A stretch of DNA of 58,577 nt, taken from positions 1-58,577 of the IMG/VR virus record IMGVR_UViG_3300036851_000446. One strand, given 5' to 3'. The stretch is from a virus (taxonomy: Duplodnaviria; Caudoviricetes). Position numbers and translations under genes: made by a program. Positions 6,143 to 16,735 of this stretch are shown piece by piece. Positions within the stretch are counted from its first letter, which is position 1. Each line of letters begins with the position of its first letter. A model generated the notes under the pieces. That model worked only from the letters and a program-made list of their open reading frames with translations, had not been told where the DNA came from and searched no databases.

Positions 6143-6514
6143 TCACGGTGCACCGTCCAGCCACACAACCTCGGTGCGGCCATTGTGTCCGTGGACGTGC
6201 TCGACGGCCTCGGCGCCCCGGTCGTGGAACACGACACTGGTGGGCCACTCGGTGAGCCAGCGCAGAGCGACGACACCGTCGTCGAACTCGACCCCTTGGG
6301 CGACCACACCGGTGCCGGACACGCCCGACACGTCCTCGATTCGGATCAACTCGAACCGACGCAGGCGGGGCAGCGTCTGGCCCGTCCCCTCACAGTCGGG
6401 GCAGATCGGGGCCGGTTCGAGGCCGGCCACCATCTCGTAGTCGCTATCTCGTCCGACGGGAAGCGAGCCGGTACCGTCGCAACGACCACAGGGCGGACGC
6501 GTGCGAGCGGCCAT
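6143..6514 (-). CDS. Actinophage-type hypothetical protein with N-terminal CxxCxGTG zinc finger
   Basis: FELIRIEDVSGVSGTGVVAQGVEFDDGVVALRW motif typical of actinophage proteins; ATG overlapping upstream TGA. Confidence 0.7.
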   Translation of the reverse strand: MAARTRPPCGRCDGTGSLPVGRDSDYEMVAGLEPAPICPDCEGTGQTLPRLRRFELIRIEDVSGVSGTGVVAQGVEFDDGVVALRWLTEWPTSVVFHDRGAEAVEHVHGHNGRTEVVWLDGAP

Positions 6515-7003
6515 CAGTCCTCGCTCTCGGTGACGTGGATGAGCGCCCGTCCGTCGGCGTCGTAGGCGCACGCCCCGACCTGGCCGCACTCGGGGCACGG
6601 CGTGGCGAGGCGGCGTTCGATGTCCATCTCGCTGATCTCGCCGTCGTCGGGATCGTCGGGCTCGTAGTCCCGGCTGGTTCCGGCGAAGTCCCGCGGTCGG
6701 GCAGAACGTCGAGCCGTCGCGGCGCTTGCGCCGATGTGTCGGCTTGCACTCGGGCGCACACATGTGCCAGTTCGCCGGGCAGCACCGGCCGATGATCCGG
6801 ACCGGGATCGTGTCGGGCCCCGTGCCCAACCACCGGTAGTCGAACTCGTCGGCCCAATCGTTGGCGATGGTGTCGGCGCCGGGCGCTCCGCCGTTGATGA
6901 CGATGAGCGGGTGTCGTGGGTCGGCGTCCATGAGGCCGGTCAGATAGCGCTCGACCACCTCAAAGTTGACGTAGCTCCGCGAGCCGAAGACGAGGACTCT
7001 CAC
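6514..7003 (-). pseudogene. Truncated DUF2493/YspA-like SLOG protein joined out of frame to the 3' part of another gene
   Basis: MRVLVFGSRSY...INGGAPGADTIANDWA...AGLRRNQ is the SLOG N-terminal part; similarity stops near 6673, then another frame reads RDYEPDDPDD...CPECGQVGACAYDADGRALIH. Confidence 0.6.
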
Positions 7004-8886: not shown

Positions 8887-10329
8887 CTATAGCTTCACCC
8901 CGTCGCGGTCGAACACGGCGATCCGGGACGTGTCGAACACCGAACCCCGCCGCGTCGAACGGGCCACGACCACCCGCGACAGGAACAGCCGCACCATCCG
9001 GCGGCGCTCGTCGCCGGTCATCCCGGGCCACTCCTCGGCGACCACCCCGGGGTCCACGTCCATGGTCGTCGGCGGGAGCGCCGCGAGCTCGGCGTTGATC
9101 CGGGCGCGTTCGGCCACCAGCTCTGCCCGGGCTTCCTCCCACTCGTCGTCGTCGAGGCCGTCGCCCCGGGCCCACCGCCCCGCCAGCCGGCGGCGGCGCC
9201 CCTCCAGTTCTCCCAGCGCAGCGGACAGCCGCTTCCTGTCCGCGGCGTGCACGTCCCCCGCTGCGACGCGGGCGGCGAACTCGTCGGACCGCAACCGCTC
9301 GAGCAGCACCGAGGTGACGTGTTCCTCGAGCGGCGCAGCGCCGACGTAGACGTGACCGCACGGCACACCGTCGGGGTGGACGGACCGGGCCTTGTGGCAG
9401 GCGTAGACGTTGCGGCGCTTTCCCCGGTTGGTGCTCGTCGAGCCGACCAGGTGAGCGCCGCACGCGCACAAGCCGAGGCCGCCGGTCAACAGGTAGCGCC
9501 TCGCCGGCCGCGACCGGGTCCGCGACTCGAACAGGTCGACGAGGCTTTGCCACGTGACCTCGTCGAGGATCGGCTCCCACTCCCCGTCGCCGATGACCTC
9601 GCCGCGGTGGACCCGCTTGCCGGCGATCGTCGGGGCTGACAGCATCTGGCGCACGGAGCCGACGGTCCAACGCCCGTTGCGGCGGCCCGTCGCTCCGCGG
9701 GCGTCCAGCTCGCGGCCGACCGCGGCGAGCGACCAGCCAGCCAGGACCGCTTCGGCCGCCCACCTGGCCGCGGCTGCCTCGTCGGCGACGACGACGAGCC
9801 GGGACCGCTTCCGTCCGTTCTCGATCACCTGATGGTGGCGGTAGCCGAACGAGTACCCGCCGGACGGCCGGCCCGACGAGGCGAGCCAGTCGAGCTTCTC
9901 GTTGGTCTTGACCTTGATCCCCTCCACGTACTCCTTGGCGCCGACGCCCTTGTAGCGGGCGCCGGCTGATTGGCCGGCGACGAGTGATGTCCAGCCGTCG
10001 CGGTAGCCGAGGACCCCTTCGACGCCGGCGGTGCGGAACACGGTGATGAGCCGCTCGAGCTCGTCGGGCCGGCGGGTCAGTCGTTCCTGGTCCGACGTCG
10101 TGACCTGGGTGACGGTCCGGGTGAGGACGTCAGCTTTGAGGCGCTCGTAGTCGTCGCGGACCACGTCTTCTCGTTCGCCGGAGGCGTCGGGGTCGGCGTA
10201 GTAGCGGATGGTGCAGCCGGGCCAGCGGCTGTGTGCGGCGGTGGTGCCCAGTTCGTGCTGGGTGTCGATGTTCTCGGTGCGTCCGCGTAGGCGGGAGAGA
10301 CGGGCGTAGACGCCGACGACCTCGGTCAT
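8887..10329 (-). CDS. int: Large serine recombinase (integrase)
   Basis: YARLS catalytic motif, ERLTR resolvase motif, GRPSGGYSFGY recombinase domain, CACG...YACH...CGH zinc ribbon, coiled coil. Confidence 0.95.
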   Translation of the reverse strand: MTEVVGVYARLSRLRGRTENIDTQHELGTTAAHSRWPGCTIRYYADPDASGEREDVVRDDYERLKADVLTRTVTQVTTSDQERLTRRPDELERLITVFRTAGVEGVLGYRDGWTSLVAGQSAGARYKGVGAKEYVEGIKVKTNEKLDWLASSGRPSGGYSFGYRHHQVIENGRKRSRLVVVADEAAAARWAAEAVLAGWSLAAVGRELDARGATGRRNGRWTVGSVRQMLSAPTIAGKRVHRGEVIGDGEWEPILDEVTWQSLVDLFESRTRSRPARRYLLTGGLGLCACGAHLVGSTSTNRGKRRNVYACHKARSVHPDGVPCGHVYVGAAPLEEHVTSVLLERLRSDEFAARVAAGDVHAADRKRLSAALGELEGRRRRLAGRWARGDGLDDDEWEEARAELVAERARINAELAALPPTTMDVDPGVVAEEWPGMTGDERRRMVRLFLSRVVVARSTRRGSVFDTSRIAVFDRDGVKL

Positions 10330-10407: not shown

Positions 10408-10653
10408 ATGCCTACCCCCATCCCCGATACCACACAACACCCGACCGGCGAGCAGGTCAACCCGCCGACCATCACACCAGACACCGGCGAGTACGAACTC
10501 GTCACGGTCCAGATGACCATCTGCCGCCCATGCCTCGACGGCGTGGGCTCTGAATGCCACACGCCCGGCTGCGCCCTGTGGATGCACCGGGTGGACCTGC
10601 CGATCCGGCCCGAGTTCTACCAGGTGGTCGTGTTCGACGAGGCCCGGTCGTGA
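10408..10653 (+). CDS. Small Cys-rich protein (ICRPCLDGVGSECHTPGCALWMH); possible recombination directionality factor by position
   Basis: ATG with GGAG RBS next to attP; function inferred from position only. Confidence 0.6.
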   Translation: MPTPIPDTTQHPTGEQVNPPTITPDTGEYELVTVQMTICRPCLDGVGSECHTPGCALWMHRVDLPIRPEFYQVVVFDEARS

Positions 10654-11000
10654 GCGACTCCACCACCGGCCGGACCGAGACCCTCGACGACTGGCTCGAG
10701 CAGTGGCGCCGGGACCCGTGGCACCCGCGGCTCGGAGAGGTCCAGGCCCTGGTCGACGAGATCGGCACGCTGCGCCTCCAAGTCGACGCCGGCCGGTTGC
10801 TGCTCGGAGCCGTCGCCCCGTTCGTCGAGTACTTCCGGGCGTCGAGCATGTCCCGGCAGCCCACGCTCCCCGACTCAATCGGCGTGGCCACCCACTCCAA
10901 CAGCCACGAGGGCGACACCGCGATCACAGTCGGCGACTTGCGGCATCTGGCTCGCATCGTCGGTGAGGCGTCGCGTGCGCTGTCCGGGAAGGAGGGGTGA
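10650..11000 (+). CDS. Hypothetical protein
   Basis: GTGA overlap; ORF track. Confidence 0.6.
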   Translation: MSDSTTGRTETLDDWLEQWRRDPWHPRLGEVQALVDEIGTLRLQVDAGRLLLGAVAPFVEYFRASSMSRQPTLPDSIGVATHSNSHEGDTAITVGDLRHLARIVGEASRALSGKEG

Positions 11001-11182
11001 TGGCCGGTTCACCGAAGCCGCGGCCGTACGGCCCGAGCACACGCCGTCATCCCGCGGAGGTCATCTCCGACCGGCTTGGCGATGCCGTCGAGCGCTGGCA
11101 CGAGAAGTTCACCGGCCAGGAGCGAGACGAGATCGCTGCCATCCGTCACGCCCTTTCCGAGATCGCCGAGGGCGAGCGATGA
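10997..11182 (+). CDS. Small hypothetical protein
   Basis: AAGGAGGGG RBS; overlaps. Confidence 0.6.
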   Translation: MMAGSPKPRPYGPSTRRHPAEVISDRLGDAVERWHEKFTGQERDEIAAIRHALSEIAEGER

Positions 11183-11904
11183 GCGCCACCGAGCCCGACG
11201 TCCAGGTGAACCCTCGCGGCTGGCGCCAGCTGGTCAACAACACGAGCCGGGTCGGCGAGATCGACGCCGTCTACGCCGACCTCGTGTCCGCGCTCGGAGC
11301 CCCGATGGACCCCGGCTACGAGAAGTGCGACGCCTACTGGCTGATCCTCTGGCCCGACGGGATCGTCGCCACGGTCTACAACTACAAGGACGGCCGACGG
11401 TACCTCGGCGACGCGGGGCTGCCAGTCGAGCAGATCCGGGAGTGGCACATCGGCTCACATCCCGAGCAGTGCGAGCCCCGCGTGGTCGTCCGGGCGGTCG
11501 ATGGGCTGATCCGGTTGCGGCGAAAGGCCGACGAGCCCGACGACCAGTCCGAGCCGATCGATCAGTTCGGACGCACGCTGCTGAATCGCTTACGCAGTGA
11601 GAGCCAAGCCTACGGCGACCACCGGGGCGCTGGCGGGCTCTGCGGCGAGGCCGCTGACGAGATCGAACGTCTGCGCTCGGACCTGCACAACATGGGCGTG
11701 GGGCGGGAGAAGCTCCGTCAACGGCTGAGCGCCGACAACGAGAGGCTGCGGGGGCTGAACGACGAGGTCAATCTCAAGCTCGGTGGACTCGAAGGCGACC
11801 TGCACCTGATCGCCACCCGGCACGGCTTCCCCAACTGGAAGACCTACGCCGAGGATCTCGACAAGTGCCTGGTGATCCGGGAGATCGAAGATGACAATGG
11901 GTGA
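11179..11904 (+). CDS. Hypothetical two-domain phage protein (VATVYNYK...WHIG domain plus coiled coil)
   Basis: ATGA overlap; GC3-rich codons. Confidence 0.7.
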   Translation: MSATEPDVQVNPRGWRQLVNNTSRVGEIDAVYADLVSALGAPMDPGYEKCDAYWLILWPDGIVATVYNYKDGRRYLGDAGLPVEQIREWHIGSHPEQCEPRVVVRAVDGLIRLRRKADEPDDQSEPIDQFGRTLLNRLRSESQAYGDHRGAGGLCGEAADEIERLRSDLHNMGVGREKLRQRLSADNERLRGLNDEVNLKLGGLEGDLHLIATRHGFPNWKTYAEDLDKCLVIREIEDDNG

Positions 11905-12109
11905 CCTCGCCGCCGATGCCGCCGACGTGTGCGCCTGGGCGGCGGACCTGTCCAACCGGATGCGCCGCTTCGAACCCGTCCCCGACGACGAGCTGGCGGC
12001 GTTCGAGGCCCGCAAGGAGAGCGTGGTCGAACGCATCGAGCCGGGGTTCTATGAGGACTATGGAGACGACGATGCGGAAAATTCCGACCCTGTTCGTGCG
12101 CGACCCTGA
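11891..12109 (+). CDS. Small acidic hypothetical protein
   Basis: ORF track. Confidence 0.5.
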   Translation: MTMGDLAADAADVCAWAADLSNRMRRFEPVPDDELAAFEARKESVVERIEPGFYEDYGDDDAENSDPVRARP

Positions 12110-12638
12110 CGACATGCGCCGGGTCCTGCCCGAAGTGCACCCGGACTGCAAGTGGGTGCTCGACGGCGAGGGTACGGCCACCCGCAAGTACGACGGGATC
12201 TGCGTGCGCCTGACTCGCGACGGCCCCTGGTGGGCTCGGCGCGAGATCAAGCCCGGCAAGGAGGCGCCGGCCAACTTCGTGCCCGAGCAGCTCGACGAGG
12301 CCACGGGCAAGACGTTCGGCTGGGAACCGATCGAGCAGACCGGCTGGGTGAAGTACCTCAACGAGGCCACCACCGCGGCCATGCCCGGCCTGACGTCAGG
12401 CACCTACGAGCTGTGCGGACCCAAGATCAATCGCAACCCCGAGGGCTACCCCGGCCATCGCCTGATCCGCCACGAGGTCGCCGAGGTCGATGTGCTCACG
12501 TCCAACGGCGAGCCCCGGGACTTCGCGGGTTGCCGTAGCCGCGTGGTCCAGCTCGGCGAGCGTGGGTGGGAGGGCATCGTGTGGCACCACCCCGACGGAC
12601 GCATGGCCAAGCTCAAGGCGCGGGACTTCAAGTTCTAG
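12072..12638 (+). CDS. Minimal ATP-dependent RNA ligase-like nucleotidyltransferase (DUF5565/RLIG1-like)
   Basis: MRKIPTLF N-terminus; motif I ATRKYDG; motif III GTYELCGPKIN; motif IV EGIVW; motif V AKLK. Confidence 0.8.
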   Translation: MRKIPTLFVRDPDDMRRVLPEVHPDCKWVLDGEGTATRKYDGICVRLTRDGPWWARREIKPGKEAPANFVPEQLDEATGKTFGWEPIEQTGWVKYLNEATTAAMPGLTSGTYELCGPKINRNPEGYPGHRLIRHEVAEVDVLTSNGEPRDFAGCRSRVVQLGERGWEGIVWHHPDGRMAKLKARDFKF

Positions 12639-13194: not shown

Positions 13195-14022
13195 GTGGCA
13201 ACAAAGGGAAGGGGCCGGACGGTGGCACGTCGGCAACGACTCGTCGACAGACGAGAGGAACTCGGGCTCACCCAAGAGGACGTCGCCCGCGCCGCGGGGC
13301 TCACCGCCAACAGCATCCGCCGCTACGAACTCGGGCTCTCGACCCCACGCGGCGGGGACCGGCGGGCGTACGCCGAGGCGCTGGGGTGGGAACCTCTCCA
13401 GCTCGCCATGGCGATGAGCGACGAACCTCAGCCGGTCAACGGCCACGCCGTCCCCGGGTGGCTGGGTCATCTAGCTTCCCTCGAGCAGGCTGCCGGCAGG
13501 GTGGCGGCGTTCGAACCCGTCGTCGTCCATGGCCTGTTGCAGACCGCTGCCTACGCCTGTGCGATCGAAGCCATCGGGCCCGACTCGGTCAGCGGGGACG
13601 CCGTAGCTCGCAAGGTCGAGAACCGTCTCGCCCGCCAAGCCGTCCTCGACCACAACCGCTTCGAGCTCGCGGTGGTGCTCGACGAATCCGTTCTCCGGCG
13701 ACAAGCCGGCGGCCGGGATGTGATGGCCGCGCAGCTCGATCACCTCGCCGAGATCAGCGCCCACCCTGCCGTCGATCTGCGGGTGCTGTCGCTCAGTTCG
13801 GGTGTGTTCTCCGCGGCGTTCGGGTCGTTCTCGTTGTTCGCCCAGCCGGGTGCCAGCGACCCGTACATGGCTGTAACGGAGGACCGTGCCGGCCCTCACT
13901 ACCTGGACCGCCCCCACGAGCTGGAAGCGCATTCAGCCCTGTTCGCCCACCTGTCCGACGCGGCGTGGCCACCGACGGCATCCGTTGACCTGATCCACGC
14001 TGTCTCCAAGGAGTACCGATGA
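13195..14022 (+). CDS. XRE-family HTH regulator with C-terminal DUF5753 domain (WhiJ/Scr1-like)
   Basis: N-terminal HTH; FEPVVVHGLLQTAAYA, RLARQAVL, VVLDESVLRRQAGGRDVMAAQLDHL motifs. Confidence 0.9.
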   Translation: MATKGRGRTVARRQRLVDRREELGLTQEDVARAAGLTANSIRRYELGLSTPRGGDRRAYAEALGWEPLQLAMAMSDEPQPVNGHAVPGWLGHLASLEQAAGRVAAFEPVVVHGLLQTAAYACAIEAIGPDSVSGDAVARKVENRLARQAVLDHNRFELAVVLDESVLRRQAGGRDVMAAQLDHLAEISAHPAVDLRVLSLSSGVFSAAFGSFSLFAQPGASDPYMAVTEDRAGPHYLDRPHELEAHSALFAHLSDAAWPPTASVDLIHAVSKEYR

Positions 14023-14213
14023 CAACACCCCGTTGGCGCATCTCGTCGTTCAGCGGCCAGAACGGCTCGTGTGTCGCCATTGCACCCGTCGATGACGCGG
14101 TGCTGGTGCGCAACAGCGTCCACCCCGACCGCGGGACCCTCGCGTTCCCGGCTGGTGCGATGGCGGCGTTCGTCGCCGCGGCTAAGGCCGGCGAGTACGA
14201 CGACCTCGGTTAA
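14019..14213 (+). CDS. DUF397 domain protein
   Basis: WRISSFSGQNGSCVAIA...VLVRNS...FVAAAKAGEYD; coupled to XRE gene by ATGA. Confidence 0.9.
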   Translation: MTTPRWRISSFSGQNGSCVAIAPVDDAVLVRNSVHPDRGTLAFPAGAMAAFVAAAKAGEYDDLG

Positions 14214-14217
14214 GCGC

Positions 14218-14246
14218 TTGACGCGATAAGCCGCTTATCGTACGGT
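14218..14246 (+). promoter_or_regulatory. SigA-type promoter (TTGACG-17 bp-TACGGT) whose whole spacer is a perfect palindromic operator CGATAAGC-C-GCTTATCG
   Basis: -35 at 14218-14223, palindrome at 14224-14240, -10 at 14241-14246; predicted start near G14254 matches the 5' end of the first Y RNA. Confidence 0.8.
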
Positions 14247-14253
14247 GGTCCTC

Positions 14254-14318
14254 GGTTCGGGCCGAAGCCTGCCGGTTACCTGGCATTGGACTCCGGTTGG
14301 TACTCACATGCCCGAGCC
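14254..14318 (+). ncRNA. Y RNA-like ncRNA 1 (short)
   Basis: Terminal stem GGTTCGGGC/GCCCGAGCC, GCCGAAG motif matching the bacterial Y RNA GNCGAAN0-1G consensus, upstream of Ro60. Confidence 0.75.
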
Positions 14319-14333
14319 ACACAAGGTCTGTCC

Positions 14334-14403
14334 GTTGCGGGCCGAAGCGGTCTGGTTACCCACTCTTAATGGAACCTCCAGTCCGCACCCACATGCCCGC
14401 AAC
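14334..14403 (+). ncRNA. Y RNA-like ncRNA 2 (short; CUCUUAA anticodon-like loop)
   Basis: Terminal stem GTTGCGGGC/GCCCGCAAC, GCCGAAG motif, inner stem GCGGTCTGG/CCAGTCCGC, hairpin CCA-CTCTTAA-TGG. Confidence 0.8.
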
Positions 14404-14416
14404 ACAACAAGGTCTC

Positions 14417-14554
14417 GCGCTGCGGGCCGAAGCGATGCCGGTTACCACTTGTAATGGAGAGGCCCCGGGTTCGAATCCCGGTCGCTGCCCGAAAGGGTTG
14501 CGGTAGCTCAGCGGTAGAGCGCTTAACCCGGTTCGCACAACACGCCCGCAGCGC
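14417..14554 (+). ncRNA. yrlA: YrlA-type Y RNA (circularly permuted tRNA mimic)
   Basis: Terminal stem GCGCTGCGGGC/GCCCGCAGCGC with GCCGAAG; T arm CCGGG-TTCGAAT-CCCGG (14465-81) precedes a GAAA-capped acceptor-like stem and D arm GCTC-AGCGGTA-GAGC (14506-20). Confidence 0.9.
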
Positions 14555-14574
14555 TCAACCCCTTCGGAGCGCTC

Positions 14575-16155
14575 GTGAGCATCCTTGGCGACATCGGACC
14601 CCGCAGCACCCCGCAGACGGAGCGGGCCCACCCGGACCAGCGGGAGAACAACGCCGGCGGGTACTCCTTCACCGTCTCGGACTGGGATCGGCTCGCCCGG
14701 TTCCTCGTGCTCGGCGTCGACGCCGGCACCTACTACGTGCAGCCCCGCAAGCTCGCGGTCGACAATGCCGCTGTCGTGGTTCGCTGTCTCGACGCCGACC
14801 CTCGGCGGACCGTGGACCTGGCGGTCGCTGTGTCGACGGATGGCCGGGCGCCGAAGAACGACCCCGCCGTCTTCGTGCTGGCCATGGCCGCACGTCACTC
14901 GGACGTTTGGGCCCGGCGGTACGCGATGGACCATCTCGGCGATGTGTGTCGCATCGGGACGCACCTGTTCCACTTCGCCCAGTTCGTTCAGGCGCAGCGG
15001 GGTTGGGGTCGGCTGCTGCGCGACAGCATCGCCATCTGGTACGAGCGCGACGACCTCGACGGGCTCGCCTACCAGACCGTGAAGTACCGCCAGCGCGACG
15101 GCTGGACCCACCGGGACCTGCTGCGCAAGGCCCACCCCGCGGCGCCCACCGGCGGTCACAAGGCGCTGTACGACTTCATCTGCGGGCGCCCGGCCGAGAA
15201 CCTGCCCCGGATCGTCGAGGGCTACCTCAAGATGGTCGAGGCCAGCGACCCCGACGAGGCCGCCGCGCTTGTGCGCGAGTACAACCTGCCGTGGGAGACG
15301 GTCCCCTCAGACCTGCTCGACGCCACGGTGTGGGGAGCGCTGCTCGACTCGCATTCGCTGCCGCTCGGCGCGATGGTCCGCAACCTCGGCGTGATGACCA
15401 CCAAGGGCGTGCTCACCCAGGGGTCGAGCCGCACCGCGACGGTCACAGCGAAGCTCGCCGACGTGGAAGCGATCCGCAAGGCACGACTGCACCCGATCGC
15501 CATCCTCAACGCTCTCGTCACCTACAGCTCGGGTGCCGGGTTCCGCGGTGGGCTCACCTGGACGCCGGTCCCCCGCGTCGTCGACGCGTTGGACGCCGCG
15601 TTCTACACGGCGTTCGCCACGGTCGAGCCCGCGGGCAAGCGCACCGTCCTCGCCCTAGACGTGTCGGGGTCGATGCACGGCTATGAGGCAGTGCAGGGCT
15701 CGTCGTTCTCGGCCGCCCAGGGCGCCGCCGCGATGGCACTGGTGACCGCGGCGACCGAGCCCGAGACGATCCCTGTGGCGTTCTCGCACGAGATGATCCC
15801 GGTCGACGTGTCGCCCCGCCGCCGGCTCGACGACCAGATGCGGGCGCTGTCGGGCATCCCGTTCGGCCGAACCGACTGCTCGCTGCCGATGTTGTGGGCA
15901 CTCGAGAACAATGTGCAGGCCGACACCTTCGTCGTCTACACCGACTCGGAGACCTACGCCGGGCGGATGCACCCGCACCAGGCGCTCACCCAGTATCGGC
16001 AGCGGACCGGCATCGCCGCCCGGCTCATCGTCGTGGGGATGACCGCGGCCGAGTTCACCATCGCCGACCCCAGCGACCCGGGGATGTTGGACGTGGTCGG
16101 GTTCGATTCGGCTGCACCGGGGATCATGTCGGCGTTTTCGGCCGGCCGGTTCTAG
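14575..16155 (+). CDS. rsr: Ro60/Rsr TROVE-domain RNA-binding protein with vWA domain
   Basis: NNAGGYSF...RLARFLVLGVDAGTYY, KYRQRDGWTHRDLLRKAHP, RLHPIAIL, MIDAS DVSGSM, YTDSET, MLDVVGFD; 526 aa. Confidence 0.95.
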   Translation: MSILGDIGPRSTPQTERAHPDQRENNAGGYSFTVSDWDRLARFLVLGVDAGTYYVQPRKLAVDNAAVVVRCLDADPRRTVDLAVAVSTDGRAPKNDPAVFVLAMAARHSDVWARRYAMDHLGDVCRIGTHLFHFAQFVQAQRGWGRLLRDSIAIWYERDDLDGLAYQTVKYRQRDGWTHRDLLRKAHPAAPTGGHKALYDFICGRPAENLPRIVEGYLKMVEASDPDEAAALVREYNLPWETVPSDLLDATVWGALLDSHSLPLGAMVRNLGVMTTKGVLTQGSSRTATVTAKLADVEAIRKARLHPIAILNALVTYSSGAGFRGGLTWTPVPRVVDALDAAFYTAFATVEPAGKRTVLALDVSGSMHGYEAVQGSSFSAAQGAAAMALVTAATEPETIPVAFSHEMIPVDVSPRRRLDDQMRALSGIPFGRTDCSLPMLWALENNVQADTFVVYTDSETYAGRMHPHQALTQYRQRTGIAARLIVVGMTAAEFTIADPSDPGMLDVVGFDSAAPGIMSAFSAGRF

Positions 16156-16370
16156 TGGTCGACCCCGAGCTTGCTCGCCGCATCGTGACAGCGGCCCGCA
16201 AGGGGCCCGAGTGGATCCGGCGCCGTGACGAGGCCATCGTCGAGGCGCTCGAAGCCGGCGGGTCACAACGCGAGGTGGCGCAGTTGGCCGGGCTGACACA
16301 GCCGGCGGTGTCCGGCATCCACCAACGGTGGCGCGAATCGCGGGCACCCAGCGGGGAGGACGAGCGGTGA
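16155..16370 (+). CDS. Small HTH DNA-binding protein
   Basis: RDEAIVEALEAGGSQREVAQLAGLTQPAVSGI; GTG overlaps the Ro60 TAG. Confidence 0.75.
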   Translation: MVDPELARRIVTAARKGPEWIRRRDEAIVEALEAGGSQREVAQLAGLTQPAVSGIHQRWRESRAPSGEDER

Positions 16371-16735
16371 GCGCACTTCACGGCAAGGTCGAGCACGTGT
16401 CGGGCTACGACCCGCGCAGCGTCGTCATCGACCTGGACGACGGCGGCCACGACCTCAAGCCCGACGACGAGGTCGCCGTCCACGCGGTCAAACACGCTGG
16501 CGACGGCAGCAGCGAGATGTTCGACGAGGTGCTGGGCCGGATGCTGGGCGAGGCCTACGGCGGACGGCTCATCGAGCACCTGGAGACTCTTGAGGCCATC
16601 GTCCGGGACCTGGCCGTCCGGGACCCATACGTCGACGGCCATTGGTGCCGGCTCTGCGGTCGCAGCAATGGCCATGGCGACTCGTGCCCGTGGCGCCGCT
16701 CGGTCGACTGGATGGAAGCGAACGGCCGTGAGTGA
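16367..16735 (+). CDS. Hypothetical protein with C-terminal CxxC...HxxxCPW
   Basis: GGAGG RBS; GTGA overlap. Confidence 0.65.
   Translation: MSALHGKVEHVSGYDPRSVVIDLDDGGHDLKPDDEVAVHAVKHAGDGSSEMFDEVLGRMLGEAYGGRLIEHLETLEAIVRDLAVRDPYVDGHWCRLCGRSNGHGDSCPWRRSVDWMEANGRE

What the first reader, a model, noticed from the sequence alone, without database searches (positions are those of the whole stretch)
14280..14523. The Y RNAs display different tRNA anticodon loops (Lys-CUU, Thr-UGU, possibly Ala-GGC): candidate anticodon-nuclease decoys
Seen: at the same position unit 2 has CCA-CTCTTAA-TGG (loop 14363-69) and unit 3 has CCA-CTTGTAA-TGG (14448-54). Both are 7-nt CU-NNN-AA loops matching the canonical anticodon-loop pattern for Lys(CUU) and Thr(UGU). 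Unit 1 has a weaker CTGGCAT-TGG (Ala GGC-like). Unit 3 holds a whole permuted tRNA: anticodon arm, variable loop AGGCC, T arm, GAAA-closed acceptor stem, TA, D arm, G, then CT able to pair with AG(14458-59). The Ro-binding stem is effectively inserted in the 5' strand of the anticodon stem, and there is no free CCA end. Established: several anti-phage and toxin RNases (PrrC, VapC family, PARIS AriB) cut tRNA anticodon loops, often Lys. Inference: Ro60-protected RNAs act as decoys, inhibitors or sensors for such nucleases, with the array setting specificity.
Basis: partly seen in the sequence, partly recalled or inferred. Interest (0 to 1): 0.9.

Follow-up and report, generated by a model that had tools for sequence, protein, structure and literature searches.

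The report
Phage Y RNAs displaying anticodon-like loops
Two of three small Ro60-binding RNAs encoded by this soil phage carry a hairpin built like a tRNA anticodon loop, a feature that proves common in bacterial and phage Y RNAs and suggests that their unknown partners recognise tRNA anticodon loops.

Summary
Observation confirmed; function untested. Window 14250-14556 holds three tandem Y-RNA genes upstream of, and co-oriented with, a phage Ro60 gene (14575-16155).

- **Units:** unit 3 is a YrlA-type tRNA mimic; units 1-2 are minimal Y RNAs.
- **Loops:** units 2 and 3 carry CCA/UGG-closed 7-nt loops, CU-CUU-AA and CU-UGU-AA, exactly where reported. Unit 1 has no convincing one.
- **Homologues:** I found 283 Y RNAs beside Ro60 in 99 of 101 loci. 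Of the 269 that could be scored, 88 carry such a hairpin (13 expected).
- **Loop features:** loop length peaks sharply at 7. U33, R37 and A38 are kept, and the triplet is hypervariable (37 kinds).
- **Stem:** the two bases after the D arm covary with the two after the hairpin. This gives a composite 5-bp anticodon stem from which the Ro60-binding stem branches.

The hairpin published as a "V arm" therefore sits and looks like an anticodon arm.

The family and its tRNA mimicry are known (Chen 2014). Competitive inhibition of an anticodon nuclease was already suggested (Hughes 2020). An RNA ligase gene 2 kb upstream fits an RNA-damage setting, but I did not test the triplets for bias toward known nuclease targets.

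Verdict: new variant of a known kind.

The parts
14218..14246 (+). Promoter-like hexamers TTGACG (14218-23) and TACGGT (14241-46), 17-nt spacer, ending about 7 nt before unit 1
   Evidence: Read. The consensus scan did not call it (0 sites). In a related contig both hexamers are unchanged while the spacer carries 4 substitutions (table 3). Assignment as an actinobacterial-type promoter is inference from general knowledge.
14250..14322 (+). Unit 1: minimal Y RNA (long 5'/3' stem, GCCGAAG strand, GGTTACC). Its apical loop is not convincingly anticodon-like.
   Evidence: Model R1 hit, 45.2 bits, E 1.6e-8. Fold -31.8 kcal/mol, z -2.67. Rfam sbRNA model 29.9 bits, below the gathering score of 38.
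14330..14407 (+). Unit 2: minimal Y RNA whose apical part is the hairpin CCA(14360-62)-CTCTTAA(14363-69)-TGG(14370-72)
   Evidence: R1 hit, 52.1 bits. Fold z -4.34, and the MFE contains this hairpin. 76% identical to unit 3 over its first 41 nt. The whole unit is absent from a related contig, which skips 14323-14409.
14415..14556 (+). Unit 3: YrlA-type Y RNA. Ro60-binding stem (GCCGAAG at 14426-32) plus a permuted, closed tRNA-like module.
   Evidence: R1 hit, 118.4 bits. Rfam YrlA 28.2 bits (gathering 69) and tRNA 26.9 bits (gathering 29). Helices supported by covariation.
14445..14459 (+). Anticodon-arm mimic of unit 3: CCA, 7-nt loop CTTGTAA (14448-54), TGG, then AG, which pairs with CT 14522-23
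   Evidence: The Rfam tRNA model aligns it to the anticodon arm. Register, loop length and covariation in homologues.
14460..14521 (+). Variable-loop mimic AGGCC (14460-64), T arm (14465-81), GAAA-capped acceptor-like hairpin (14482-14503), TA, D arm (14506-20), G 'position 26' (14521)
   Evidence: T stem 99.2% and D stem 96.9% of cells paired in 80 homologues.
14522..14554 (+). CT (positions 27-28 of the mimic), linker TAAC, then the 3' strands of the upper and lower Ro60-binding stems
14575..16155 (+). Ro60 (TROVE + vWA) gene
   Evidence: Pfam vWA_Ro60 3.8e-65 and TROVE 3.6e-36. 356 phage records hold homologues, all under 60% identical.
11901..12638 (+). RNA ligase gene (context only)
   Evidence: phrog_14301 'RNA ligase' 1.7e-44. 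Pfam RLIG1 1.8e-7. PDB 9c6l 'RNA ligase1' 5.6e-9.

Best explanation
Units 1-3 are Y RNAs, the small non-coding RNAs that bind the ring protein Ro60. They are probably transcribed with the Ro60 gene from a promoter at about 14218-14246 and cut into RNAs of about 70-140 nt.

Shown:
- Each unit has the family's long 5'/3' stem with the GCCGAAG strand and the GGUUAYC motif.
- The upper part of unit 3 is a circularly permuted, closed tRNA. It has helix 27-28/42-43, a 3-bp hairpin with a 7-nt loop, a 5-nt variable loop, a T arm, a capped acceptor stem and a D arm.
- Helix 27-28/42-43 plus the hairpin stem make a 5-bp anticodon-like stem. The Ro60-binding stem branches off between positions 28 and 29.
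- Unit 2 keeps only the anticodon-like hairpin.
- In homologues the loop frame (Y32, U33, R37, A38, seven bases) is kept, and the triplet changes even between close relatives.

Inferred:
- The hairpin is the contact for a protein that reads tRNA anticodon loops. Ro60, and whatever it carries (for example PNPase, as in Deinococcus), is either tethered to that protein or competes with tRNAs for it.
- In a phage with an RNA ligase gene nearby, the likeliest setting is tRNA cleavage and repair during infection.

My odds: anticodon-arm mimicry as a structure about 0.9. Competitive inhibitor or decoy of an anticodon nuclease about 0.2. Adaptor for tRNA repair, modification or decay about 0.3. The confidence given for this entry (0.5) is for the whole statement, the inferred contact with an anticodon-loop-reading protein included.
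For: Locus:
- Ro60 ORF with TROVE and vWA_Ro60 domains.
- Three R1 hits directly upstream on the same strand.
- All 283 R1 hits in 101 sources lie on the Ro60 strand.

Structure:
- RNAalifold on 12 homologues gives the Ro60 stems, T, acceptor-like and D helices; 18 of 33 pairs show compensatory change.
- The count of structure pairs on 80 homologues: 96.6% of cells paired overall (shuffled 77.3, 0 of 500 reach it). The 42-43/27-28 helix is 87.9% paired, with both-side changes in 28 and 32 sequences.
- Fixed-register count on all 119 tRNA-like Y RNAs: 27-43 paired in 89 and 28-42 in 88. Watson-Crick 78 and 76, against permuted means of 37 and 35 (0 of 2000 permutations reach them).
- In the same set, the local stem closes a 7-nt loop in 44 and any other loop length in 0-15. 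Unselected loop composition (n=44): U33 37, Y32 38, R37 38, A38 37; positions 34-36 are spread over all four bases.

Spread of the hairpin:
- 88 of 269 Y RNAs against 13.4 in shuffles. This includes 24 of 81 minimal Y RNAs against 2.0.
- 63 of 99 loci with hits have at least one.

tRNA-likeness:
- The Rfam tRNA model aligns hairpin, variable loop and T arm colinearly.
- GenBank annotators called tRNA-Asn, tRNA-Thr(tgt) and tRNA-Gln over such Y RNAs in three phages (against the hits).
- G at position 37 goes with G at position 36: 13 of 16 against 5 of 72, Fisher p 3e-9.

Conservation:
- In a related contig units 1 and 3 show no listed change, while the flanks do.

Triplet turnover:
- Of 6 pairs at least 80% identical overall, 1 shares the triplet.

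Context:
- RNA ligase gene 2 kb upstream.

Literature:
- Y RNAs tether Ro60 to effectors, and YrlA mimics tRNA (Chen 2014, PMC4201824, sections and passages).
- The inhibitor idea (Hughes 2020, passage).
Against: - Thermodynamics does not single the hairpins out: z +0.39 and +0.03, and the MFE of unit 3 uses another local pairing.
- Unit 2's stem is only 3 bp.
- Only about a third of Y RNAs have the hairpin. The crystallised Salmonella YrlA has none (bioRxiv 10.1101/312249, passages), so the module is not essential to the family.
- Secondary structure cannot tell whether the hairpin stacks under helix 27-28/42-43 (anticodon-arm geometry) or sticks out like a side arm.
- 14 of 88 loops have A34, which is rare in real bacterial tRNAs (general knowledge).
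- Fast triplet turnover is what unconstrained sites would also show.
- No transcript ends, modifications or partners were seen. The runs laid were contigs, and one RNA-library contig of a relative is no proof of expression.
- My shuffles ignore relatedness of the sequences.
- Register and anchors came from my own model R1.
- One search used 80 of the 98 rows I had.
- This ligase family is not seen in the Ro60 phages listed.
Confidence: 0.5

Rival explanations
1. One reading: the Ro60-held anticodon-like loops are decoys, competitive inhibitors or sensors of anticodon nucleases, and the set of triplets in an array sets which nucleases are met.
For: - The frame is kept and the triplet varies.
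- Arrays hold different triplets: 0 of 29 within-locus pairs are the same, though only about one would be expected by chance.
- RNA ligase gene nearby.
- Unit 2 is gained or lost between relatives.
- In phages Ro60 often sits beside tRNA clusters.
- Phage tRNAs are proposed to counter anticodon nucleases (PMC10264068, abstract and passages).
- The inhibitor idea is in print for Salmonella YrlA (PMC7790460, passage).
Against: - No nuclease, cleavage or protection was examined.
- I did not test the triplets for enrichment of known nuclease targets.
- 14 of 88 loops carry A34, unlike real bacterial anticodons (general knowledge).
- Fast triplet change is equally expected of unconstrained sites.
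- Many Ro60 loci have Y RNAs without any such loop (181 of 269).
Confidence: 0.2
2. Relic or scaffold: YrlA-type RNAs descend from a tRNA, and the anticodon hairpin is kept only because its U-turn loop and short stem help the three-way junction or the Ro60 particle to fold. The triplet is neutral and nothing reads it. This also covers the published 'V arm' view, in which the hairpin projects as a side arm.
For: - Positions 34-36 are spread over all four bases without strong bias.
- The triplet differs in 5 of 6 close pairs.
- Two thirds of Y RNAs do without the hairpin.
- Chen 2014 describes it as a less-conserved stem-loop, V (section 6).
Against: - Minimal Y RNAs with no tRNA body still keep the same 7-nt frame (24 of 81 against 2.0 expected).
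- G37 tracks G36.
- A separate 5-nt variable-loop mimic already fills the variable position.
- Some distant phages share the whole loop while the stem covaries, for example Cali/Sparky and FuzzBuster/SM23.
Confidence: 0.25
3. [quoted passage not shown]
For: - The acceptor-like stem of unit 3 has 7 pairs plus 2 more before the GAAA cap.
Against: - A Ro60-bound helix of about 20 bp branching from the anticodon stem would not fit a ribosomal tRNA site (inference).
- ARAGORN finds no tRNA in the window.
- Unit 2 and other minimal Y RNAs have the loop without any tRNA body.
Confidence: 0.03
4. Chance resemblance: short hairpins in G+C-rich RNA that happen to look like anticodon loops.
For: Single-hairpin energies are no better than shuffles. 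A permissive 3-bp scan has a high background.
Against: Sharp peak at 7 nt, signature bases, and covariation of the flanking helix.
Confidence: 0.02

Closest known systems
YrlA (Y RNA-like A) of Salmonella Typhimurium, M. smegmatis and mycobacteriophages: Rfam RF02553; Chen et al. 2014, PMC4201824; crystal structure paper, bioRxiv 10.1101/312249
   Same: - Encoded next to and upstream of Ro60.
- GNCGAA strand in a long 5'/3' stem.
- Conserved YUAY.
- T arm, closed acceptor-like hairpin and D arm in permuted order.
- Several Y RNAs per locus, processed from one precursor in M. smegmatis.
   Different: - Unit 3 scores only 28.2 bits on the Rfam model (gathering 69).
- The literature calls the hairpin before the T arm a variable ('V') arm and states that YrlA lacks the anticodon loop (Salmonella RNA).
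- Here the hairpin lies below a covarying 27-28/42-43 helix, a separate 5-nt variable-loop mimic is present, and the loop has anticodon-loop length and signature.
- I could not see Chen 2014's supplements or the 2018 and 2020 reviews, which may show or discuss this.
Minimal Y RNAs: YrlB and Yrn2 of bacteria, nematode stem-bulge RNAs (Rfam RF01656)
   Same: Units 1 and 2 are about 70-nt hairpins with the Ro60-binding stem and a small apical loop. The sbRNA model aligns end to end (36.5 and 29.9 bits).
   Different: - Both scores are below the gathering score of 38.
- Chen 2014 describes 'a small pyrimidine-rich loop' (passage).
- Here 24 of 81 minimal Y RNAs carry a 7-nt YU-NNN-RN loop on a 3-6-bp stem.
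Phage-encoded tRNAs proposed to escape anticodon nucleases (van den Berg et al. 2023, PMC10264068; Azam et al. 2024, PMC11555353, listing only)
   Same: Phage-borne RNAs with anticodon loops in actinophages. The same conflict is invoked. Cluster C1 mycobacteriophages carry both many tRNAs and Ro60 with YrlA.
   Different: - Those are working tRNAs that replace cleaved ones.
- These RNAs are closed, permuted or reduced to the hairpin, and bound to Ro60.
- That paper does not mention Ro60, Y RNA or decoys (0 occurrences).
Other tRNA mimics (tmRNA, TYMV tRNA-like structure), as compared in bioRxiv 10.1101/312249
   Same: L-shape mimicry through T and D arm contacts.
   Different: Those have free CCA ends and are charged. 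Unit 3 has a capped acceptor stem and a true-looking anticodon arm.

Membership tests
Bacterial/phage Y RNA of the YrlA type | Encoded beside, and on the strand of, a Ro60 (TROVE) gene | tested here: met
   Units at 14250-14556 and Ro60 at 14575-16155, both on the + strand.
Bacterial/phage Y RNA of the YrlA type | GNCGAAN0-1G motif near the 5' end, within a long stem formed by the 5' and 3' ends (definition from Chen 2014) | tested here: met
   GCCGAAG is present in all three units. Stems fold and covary in homologues.
Bacterial/phage Y RNA of the YrlA type | T-arm and D-arm mimics separated by a closed acceptor-like hairpin | tested here: met
   Unit 3 only: 14465-81, 14482-14503 and 14506-20. 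Units 1 and 2 lack them.
Bacterial/phage Y RNA of the YrlA type | Reaches the gathering score of Rfam RF02553 | tested here: not met
   28.2 bits against 69. No Rfam family reaches its gathering score anywhere in the window. My model built from Ro60-linked homologues gives 118.4 bits.
Bacterial/phage Y RNA of the YrlA type | Bound and stabilised by Ro60 in cells | not testable with these tools
   Needs immunoprecipitation and northern blots.
tRNA | Seven-base anticodon loop with U33 and purine 37 on a 5-bp stem | tested here: met
   Unit 3: loop 14448-54, stem 14445-47/14455-57 plus 14522-23/14458-59. Unit 2 has the loop but only a 3-bp stem.
tRNA | Cloverleaf in normal order with free 5' and 3' ends at the acceptor stem | tested here: not met
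   The order is permuted and the acceptor stem is capped by GAAA. ARAGORN finds none. Rfam tRNA 26.9 bits against 29.
tRNA | Aminoacylation and decoding | not testable with these tools
   No data.
Nematode sbRNA / animal Y RNA (RF01656) | Reaches the family's gathering score | tested here: not met
   36.5 bits (unit 2) and 29.9 bits (unit 1) against 38.
Anticodon-nuclease inhibitor or decoy RNA (no defined family) | Binds or blocks an anticodon nuclease | not testable with these tools
   Only context is available: the RNA ligase gene.

The most novel reading that the evidence does not exclude
Ro60-linked Y-RNA arrays are libraries of protein-shielded anticodon stem-loop mimics. The loop frame is fixed and the triplet is under diversifying selection, so that phages and bacteria gain, lose and re-aim units to bind, blunt or sense particular anticodon-loop-reading enzymes (nucleases above all). 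Y RNAs with other apical modules would then be mimics of other translation-machinery targets. One example is a 29-nt stretch identical to 23S rRNA, seen in two myxobacterial loci.
Probability: 0.15. Interest if true: 0.9.

Novelty: new variant of a known kind. Interest (0 to 1): 0.62.

Why it matters
What the tRNA-like half of bacterial and phage Y RNAs binds is an open question. The structure paper speaks of 'an unknown factor'.

If the module includes a real anticodon-arm mimic, and if minimal Y RNAs keep only that hairpin, the search narrows to proteins that read anticodon loops: anticodon nucleases, loop-modifying enzymes and repair ligases. Simple loop and triplet swaps then become informative experiments.

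It also revises the published secondary-structure labelling ('V arm'). It explains why tRNA finders and annotators call spurious tRNA genes next to Ro60 in phage genomes. And it links Ro60 particles to the current work on tRNA-targeting phage defence.

Tried and rejected
- **Rfam at gathering scores:** no hit in the window.
- **ARAGORN:** no tRNA or tmRNA.
- **Megablast of 14200-16200 against GenBank phages:** no match.
- **Consensus promoter/terminator scan of 13900-16500:** nothing.
- **Folding the hairpins alone:** not better than shuffles.
- **My first end-finding script for homologues:** unreliable; replaced by a covariance model.
- **A permissive scan for any 3-bp hairpin:** background too high to be useful; replaced by the stricter counts.
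- **An alternative helix, UUA of the UUAYC motif pairing with UAA at loop positions 36-38:** possible in unit 3, but it depends on U36, which varies. Dropped.
- **ORF 10963-11904, before the ligase:** no family, no solved relative, no homologue beyond itself, no Atlas hit.
- **Ten more phage ORFs:** no Pfam family.
- **Ligase homologues:** found in 24 phage records, none of them among the 120 Ro60 rows (H1-H120, with repeats) that I saw listed. No recurrent ligase-Ro60 pairing is shown.
- **Expression:** only contigs could be laid. One 156-nt contig of an RNA library covers 14455-14604 with 7 changes and 5 gaps, and one run labelled RNA is probably DNA. Parts without cover mean nothing.
- **The 23S-like stretch:** the two MAGs hold only the Y-RNA copy, so no comparison with their own rRNA was possible.
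- **Reviews PMC10870794 and PMC6047535:** not held.
Full report
**What the window is**

The window is a complete 58.6-kb virus record with terminal repeats, 68% G+C. It has a tape-measure gene, a serine integrase and other phage genes.

At 14575-16155 (+) lies a 526-aa Ro60 homologue (vWA_Ro60 3.8e-65, TROVE 3.6e-36). Its nearest relatives in GenBank phages are under 60% identical. They occur in 356 records, mostly Mycobacterium and Streptomyces phages.

**The observation**

Between the stop of a DUF397 gene (14213) and Ro60 there are three direct repeats with 80- and 85-nt spacing.

- Each begins with CGG/CGT/CGC-T-(T/G)-CGGGCCGAAGC and contains GGTTACC.
- Each folds into a long 5'/3' stem: z -2.67, -4.34 and -2.48.
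- Nothing reaches an Rfam gathering score.
- At relaxed thresholds units 1 and 2 align end to end with the nematode stem-bulge (Y RNA) model (29.9 and 36.5 bits, gathering 38).
- Unit 3 aligns with YrlA (28.2 bits, gathering 69) and with tRNA (26.9 bits, gathering 29).
- The tRNA model places 14443-14459 on the anticodon arm, AGGCC on the variable loop and 14465-81 on the T arm.

Unit 1 offers only a 2-bp closure and no U at the second loop position, so I do not count it.

Taken alone the two hairpins are not better than shuffled sequence. The minimum-energy fold of unit 3 chooses a different local pairing. The case therefore rests on comparison.

**What is already known**

Chen et al. 2014 (PMC4201824; abstract, section 6 and passages read) found YrlA-type Y RNAs beside Ro60 in 254 bacteria and 22 phages. 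They described:
- the GNCGAA motif and a conserved YUAY;
- T and D arm mimics and a closed acceptor-like stem;

The structure paper (bioRxiv 10.1101/312249, passages) says the Salmonella RNA 'lacks the anticodon loop'.

The Methods of Chen 2014 print a probe for the 5' half of M. smegmatis YrlA. Its complement has the same CCA/UGG-closed seven-base loop with the triplet UCU. That was my first hint that the frame is conserved.

I could not see that paper's supplements. The 2018 and 2020 reviews are not held.

**Homologues**

I gathered 6 IMG/VR loci, 80 bacterial or archaeal genome loci from many phyla (563 candidate loci existed and the best 80 were kept) and 14 GenBank phage loci. Each had 1.5-kb flanks.

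A 12-sequence alignment gave a consensus with the Ro60 stems and the T, acceptor-like and D helices. 18 of 33 pairs showed compensatory change. The covariance model built from it (R1) found 283 matches at E <= 0.001 in 99 of 101 sources, all on the Ro60 strand and up to 8 per locus. The three window units score 45.2, 52.1 and 118.4 bits.

**The composite anticodon stem**

I anchored positions on the T stem (position 49) and the end of the D stem (position 25), so nothing in the variable region had to be aligned. The register was fixed to a 5-nt variable loop. All 119 Y RNAs that have both arms were counted.

| Measure | Result |
|---|---|
| Position 27 pairs with 43 | 89 of 119 |
| Position 28 pairs with 42 | 88 of 119 |
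| Watson-Crick pairs (27-43 / 28-42) | 78 / 76 |
| Permuted means | 37 / 35; 0 of 2000 permutations reach the observed counts |

On a MAFFT alignment of 80 of the 98 best rows, the count of structure pairs gives 87.9% paired cells for this 2-bp helix. Changes on both sides occur in 28 and 32 sequences. Sliding the partner by 1-3 columns drops overall pairing from 96.6% to 35-50%.

**The hairpin below it**

With positions 39-41 fixed by the same register, three of three pairs close a 7-nt loop in 44 of 119 RNAs. For every other loop length from 3 to 11 the count is 0 to 15.

In those 44 loops, with no selection on sequence:
- position 33 is U in 37;
- position 32 is a pyrimidine in 38;
- position 37 is a purine in 38;
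- position 38 is A in 37;
- positions 34-36 are spread over all four bases.

The five bases before the T stem read like a class I variable loop: G46 in 86 of 98 and Y48 in 91 of 98.

So helix 27-28/42-43 plus the 3-bp hairpin stem make five pairs, the loop has seven bases with the tRNA signature, and a separate variable-loop mimic is present. Because the hairpin lies below a covarying 27-28/42-43 helix, it is not at the place where a variable arm leaves a tRNA. The Ro60-binding stem is the extra branch, leaving between positions 28 and 29.

Other YrlAs, for example L058, have no hairpin. There the 27-31/39-43 stem runs straight on into the Ro60 stem, which is the Salmonella-type architecture.

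**Minimal Y RNAs**

I used one criterion for all 269 Y RNAs with a defined upper stem:
- a hairpin of at least 3 bp, at least 2 of them Watson-Crick, starting right after UUAYC;
- a 7-nt loop with U at its second base and a purine at its sixth.

| Class | Observed | Shuffle mean |
|---|---|---|
| All Y RNAs | 88 of 269 | 13.4 (0 of 100 shuffles reach 88) |
| Minimal Y RNAs, like unit 2 | 24 of 81 | 2.0 |
| Y RNAs with a T arm | 59 of 151 | 9.4 |

Loops of 5 or 6 nt are at background. 63 of the 99 loci with hits have at least one such loop and 21 have two or more. Unit 2's loop frame is thus a recurrent module even without a tRNA body.

**The triplet**

- The 88 loops hold 37 different triplets. 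The commonest are GUU 8, GUC 6, CAU 5 and GAU 5.
- No two loops within a locus share a triplet (0 of 29 pairs), but only about one shared pair would be expected.
- Among same-class pairs at least 80% identical overall, 1 of 6 shares the triplet. Triplet positions are 58-67% identical. The triplet therefore changes faster than the rest of the RNA.
- G37 goes with G36: 13 of 16 against 5 of 72, p 3e-9. This recalls the G36-G37 rule of real tRNAs (general knowledge). Several of the 13 are probably related copies.
- A34, rare in real bacterial tRNAs (general knowledge), occurs in 14 of 88.
- Some distant phages share the whole loop while the stem covaries: Cali and Sparky, FuzzBuster and SM23. The window's unit 3 and an M. 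abscessus prophage share the entire arm at 70% overall identity.

**Population data**

One soil run holds the stretch whole and may be its source. Four other runs were laid on the region as contigs.

- A 2.4-kb contig from a sediment run covers 14157-14322 and 14410-14744 and skips 14323-14409. That is unit 2 with its spacer.
- In that contig units 1 and 3 show no listed change, while the upstream spacer and the Ro60 gene do.
- The hexamers TTGACG (14218-23) and TACGGT (14241-46) are unchanged, while four spacer positions differ.
- Another contig covers unit 2 with one C of the CCC run left out. This gives unit 2 the same UUA-CCA spacing as unit 3.

These are contigs. They show neither RNA ends nor expression.

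**Context**

- Two kilobases upstream on the same strand is an RNA ligase gene (phrog_14301 1.7e-44; RLIG1 1.8e-7; PDB 9c6l 5.6e-9).
- It sits next to the integrase, followed by an HTH-DUF5753 and DUF397 gene pair.
- In GenBank phages Ro60 often sits beside tRNA clusters and tmRNA.
- Annotators labelled three of these YrlAs as tRNA-Asn, tRNA-Thr(tgt) and tRNA-Gln.
- Iyer et al. 2021 (PMC7824862, passage) place TROVE proteins with a tRNA-like partner among RNA-repair systems of jumbo phages.

**Function**

Nothing here tests function. Four published points bear on it:
- Y RNAs tether Ro60 to effectors such as PNPase (Chen 2014; the Thermus phage Ro60 paper PMC12135203, passages).
- YrlA is modified by tRNA enzymes and cut by RNase P (Chen 2014).
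- Hughes et al. 2020 suggested competitive inhibition of an anticodon nuclease.
- van den Berg et al. 2023 proposed that tRNAs of cluster C1 mycobacteriophages, which also carry Ro60, evade anticodon nucleases. They make no mention of Ro60 or Y RNA.

I commit to this: the hairpin is an anticodon-arm mimic that serves as the contact for an anticodon-loop-reading protein, in the setting of tRNA damage and repair. I give the decoy or inhibitor version about 0.2, an adaptor role about 0.3, and a relic or scaffold with a neutral triplet about 0.25.

**Verdict**

The structural interpretation is right, and it refines the published model. The functional idea is plausible, partly anticipated in print, and untested.

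My searches of the held library for Y RNA or Ro60 together with anticodon found no paper that describes the hairpin as an anticodon-arm mimic or notes the variable triplet. The reviews and supplements I could not read may do so.

Noticed in passing
L063:3263-3291 and L036 about 2950-2980 (also L102, L103): A Y-RNA-like unit (GCCGAAAG strand, then TTATC or TTACC) carries an apical stretch of 29 nt that is 100% identical to E. coli 23S rRNA (7 places per genome, annotated 23S). It is the only copy found in those two MAGs. From memory this is the helix 69-71 region. It looks like a Y RNA displaying an rRNA mimic.
   Followed up: partly
window 11901-12638 (+), with 8887-10329 (-): An RNA ligase gene (RLIG1/phrog_14301 type) lies beside the serine integrase and 2 kb upstream of the Y RNAs. 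Two ORFs before it (10554-11000, 10963-11904) have no recognisable family.
   Followed up: partly
window 13195-14213 (+): A gene pair typical of Streptomyces chromosomes, HTH + DUF5753 (9.6e-44) and DUF397 (1.2e-16), sits in the phage directly before the Y-RNA promoter. It may regulate the locus.
   Followed up: no
L094:1201-1267, L095:750-828, L090:4028-4095: The GenBank records of Microbacterium phage SM23, prophiGD43A-5 and Gordonia phage Forza annotate tRNA-Asn, tRNA-Thr(tgt) and tRNA-Gln at places that are YrlA-type Y RNAs by model R1 (L094 1195-1334, L095 752-891, L090 4021-4157). These are probably spurious tRNA calls caused by the anticodon-arm mimic.
   Followed up: partly
window 14323-14409: Unit 2 with its spacer is missing from a related metagenomic contig that otherwise matches on both sides. 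Units are therefore gained or lost whole.
   Followed up: partly
window 14253-14403; Rfam RF01656: The nematode stem-bulge (Y RNA homologue) model nearly reaches its threshold on units 1 and 2, and its consensus shares the GGUUAYC motif that follows the upper stem. 237 of 269 prokaryotic and phage Y RNAs begin their apical part with UUAUC or UUACC.
   Followed up: no
L036 and L063 (whole loci); L040, L007: Some Ro60 loci are flanked by large arrays of tRNA genes that score as genuine: 19 and 9 Rfam tRNA hits above the gathering score within 4.5 kb. Others hold up to 7-8 Y RNAs in tandem.
   Followed up: no
88 anticodon-like loops in all loci: Triplets beginning GU (GUU 8, GUC 6, GUG 3, GUA 2) make up 19 of 88. 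These are the anticodons of the queuosine tRNAs and of colicin E5 targets (general knowledge). G34 and U35 are each common, so independence of positions nearly explains the count.
   Followed up: no
window 6143-7003 (-): An ORF with a SLOG-family YAcAr domain (1.4e-7) and a DnaJ-type zinc-finger motif. Domains of this kind occur in conflict systems.
   Followed up: no
window 14482-14503: The acceptor-like stem of unit 3 has 7 pairs (one U-U mismatch) plus two C-G pairs before the GAAA cap, like the M. smegmatis YrlA that RNase P cuts and that receives CA. Unit 3 may therefore be processed into a two-piece RNA with a CCA end.
   Followed up: no
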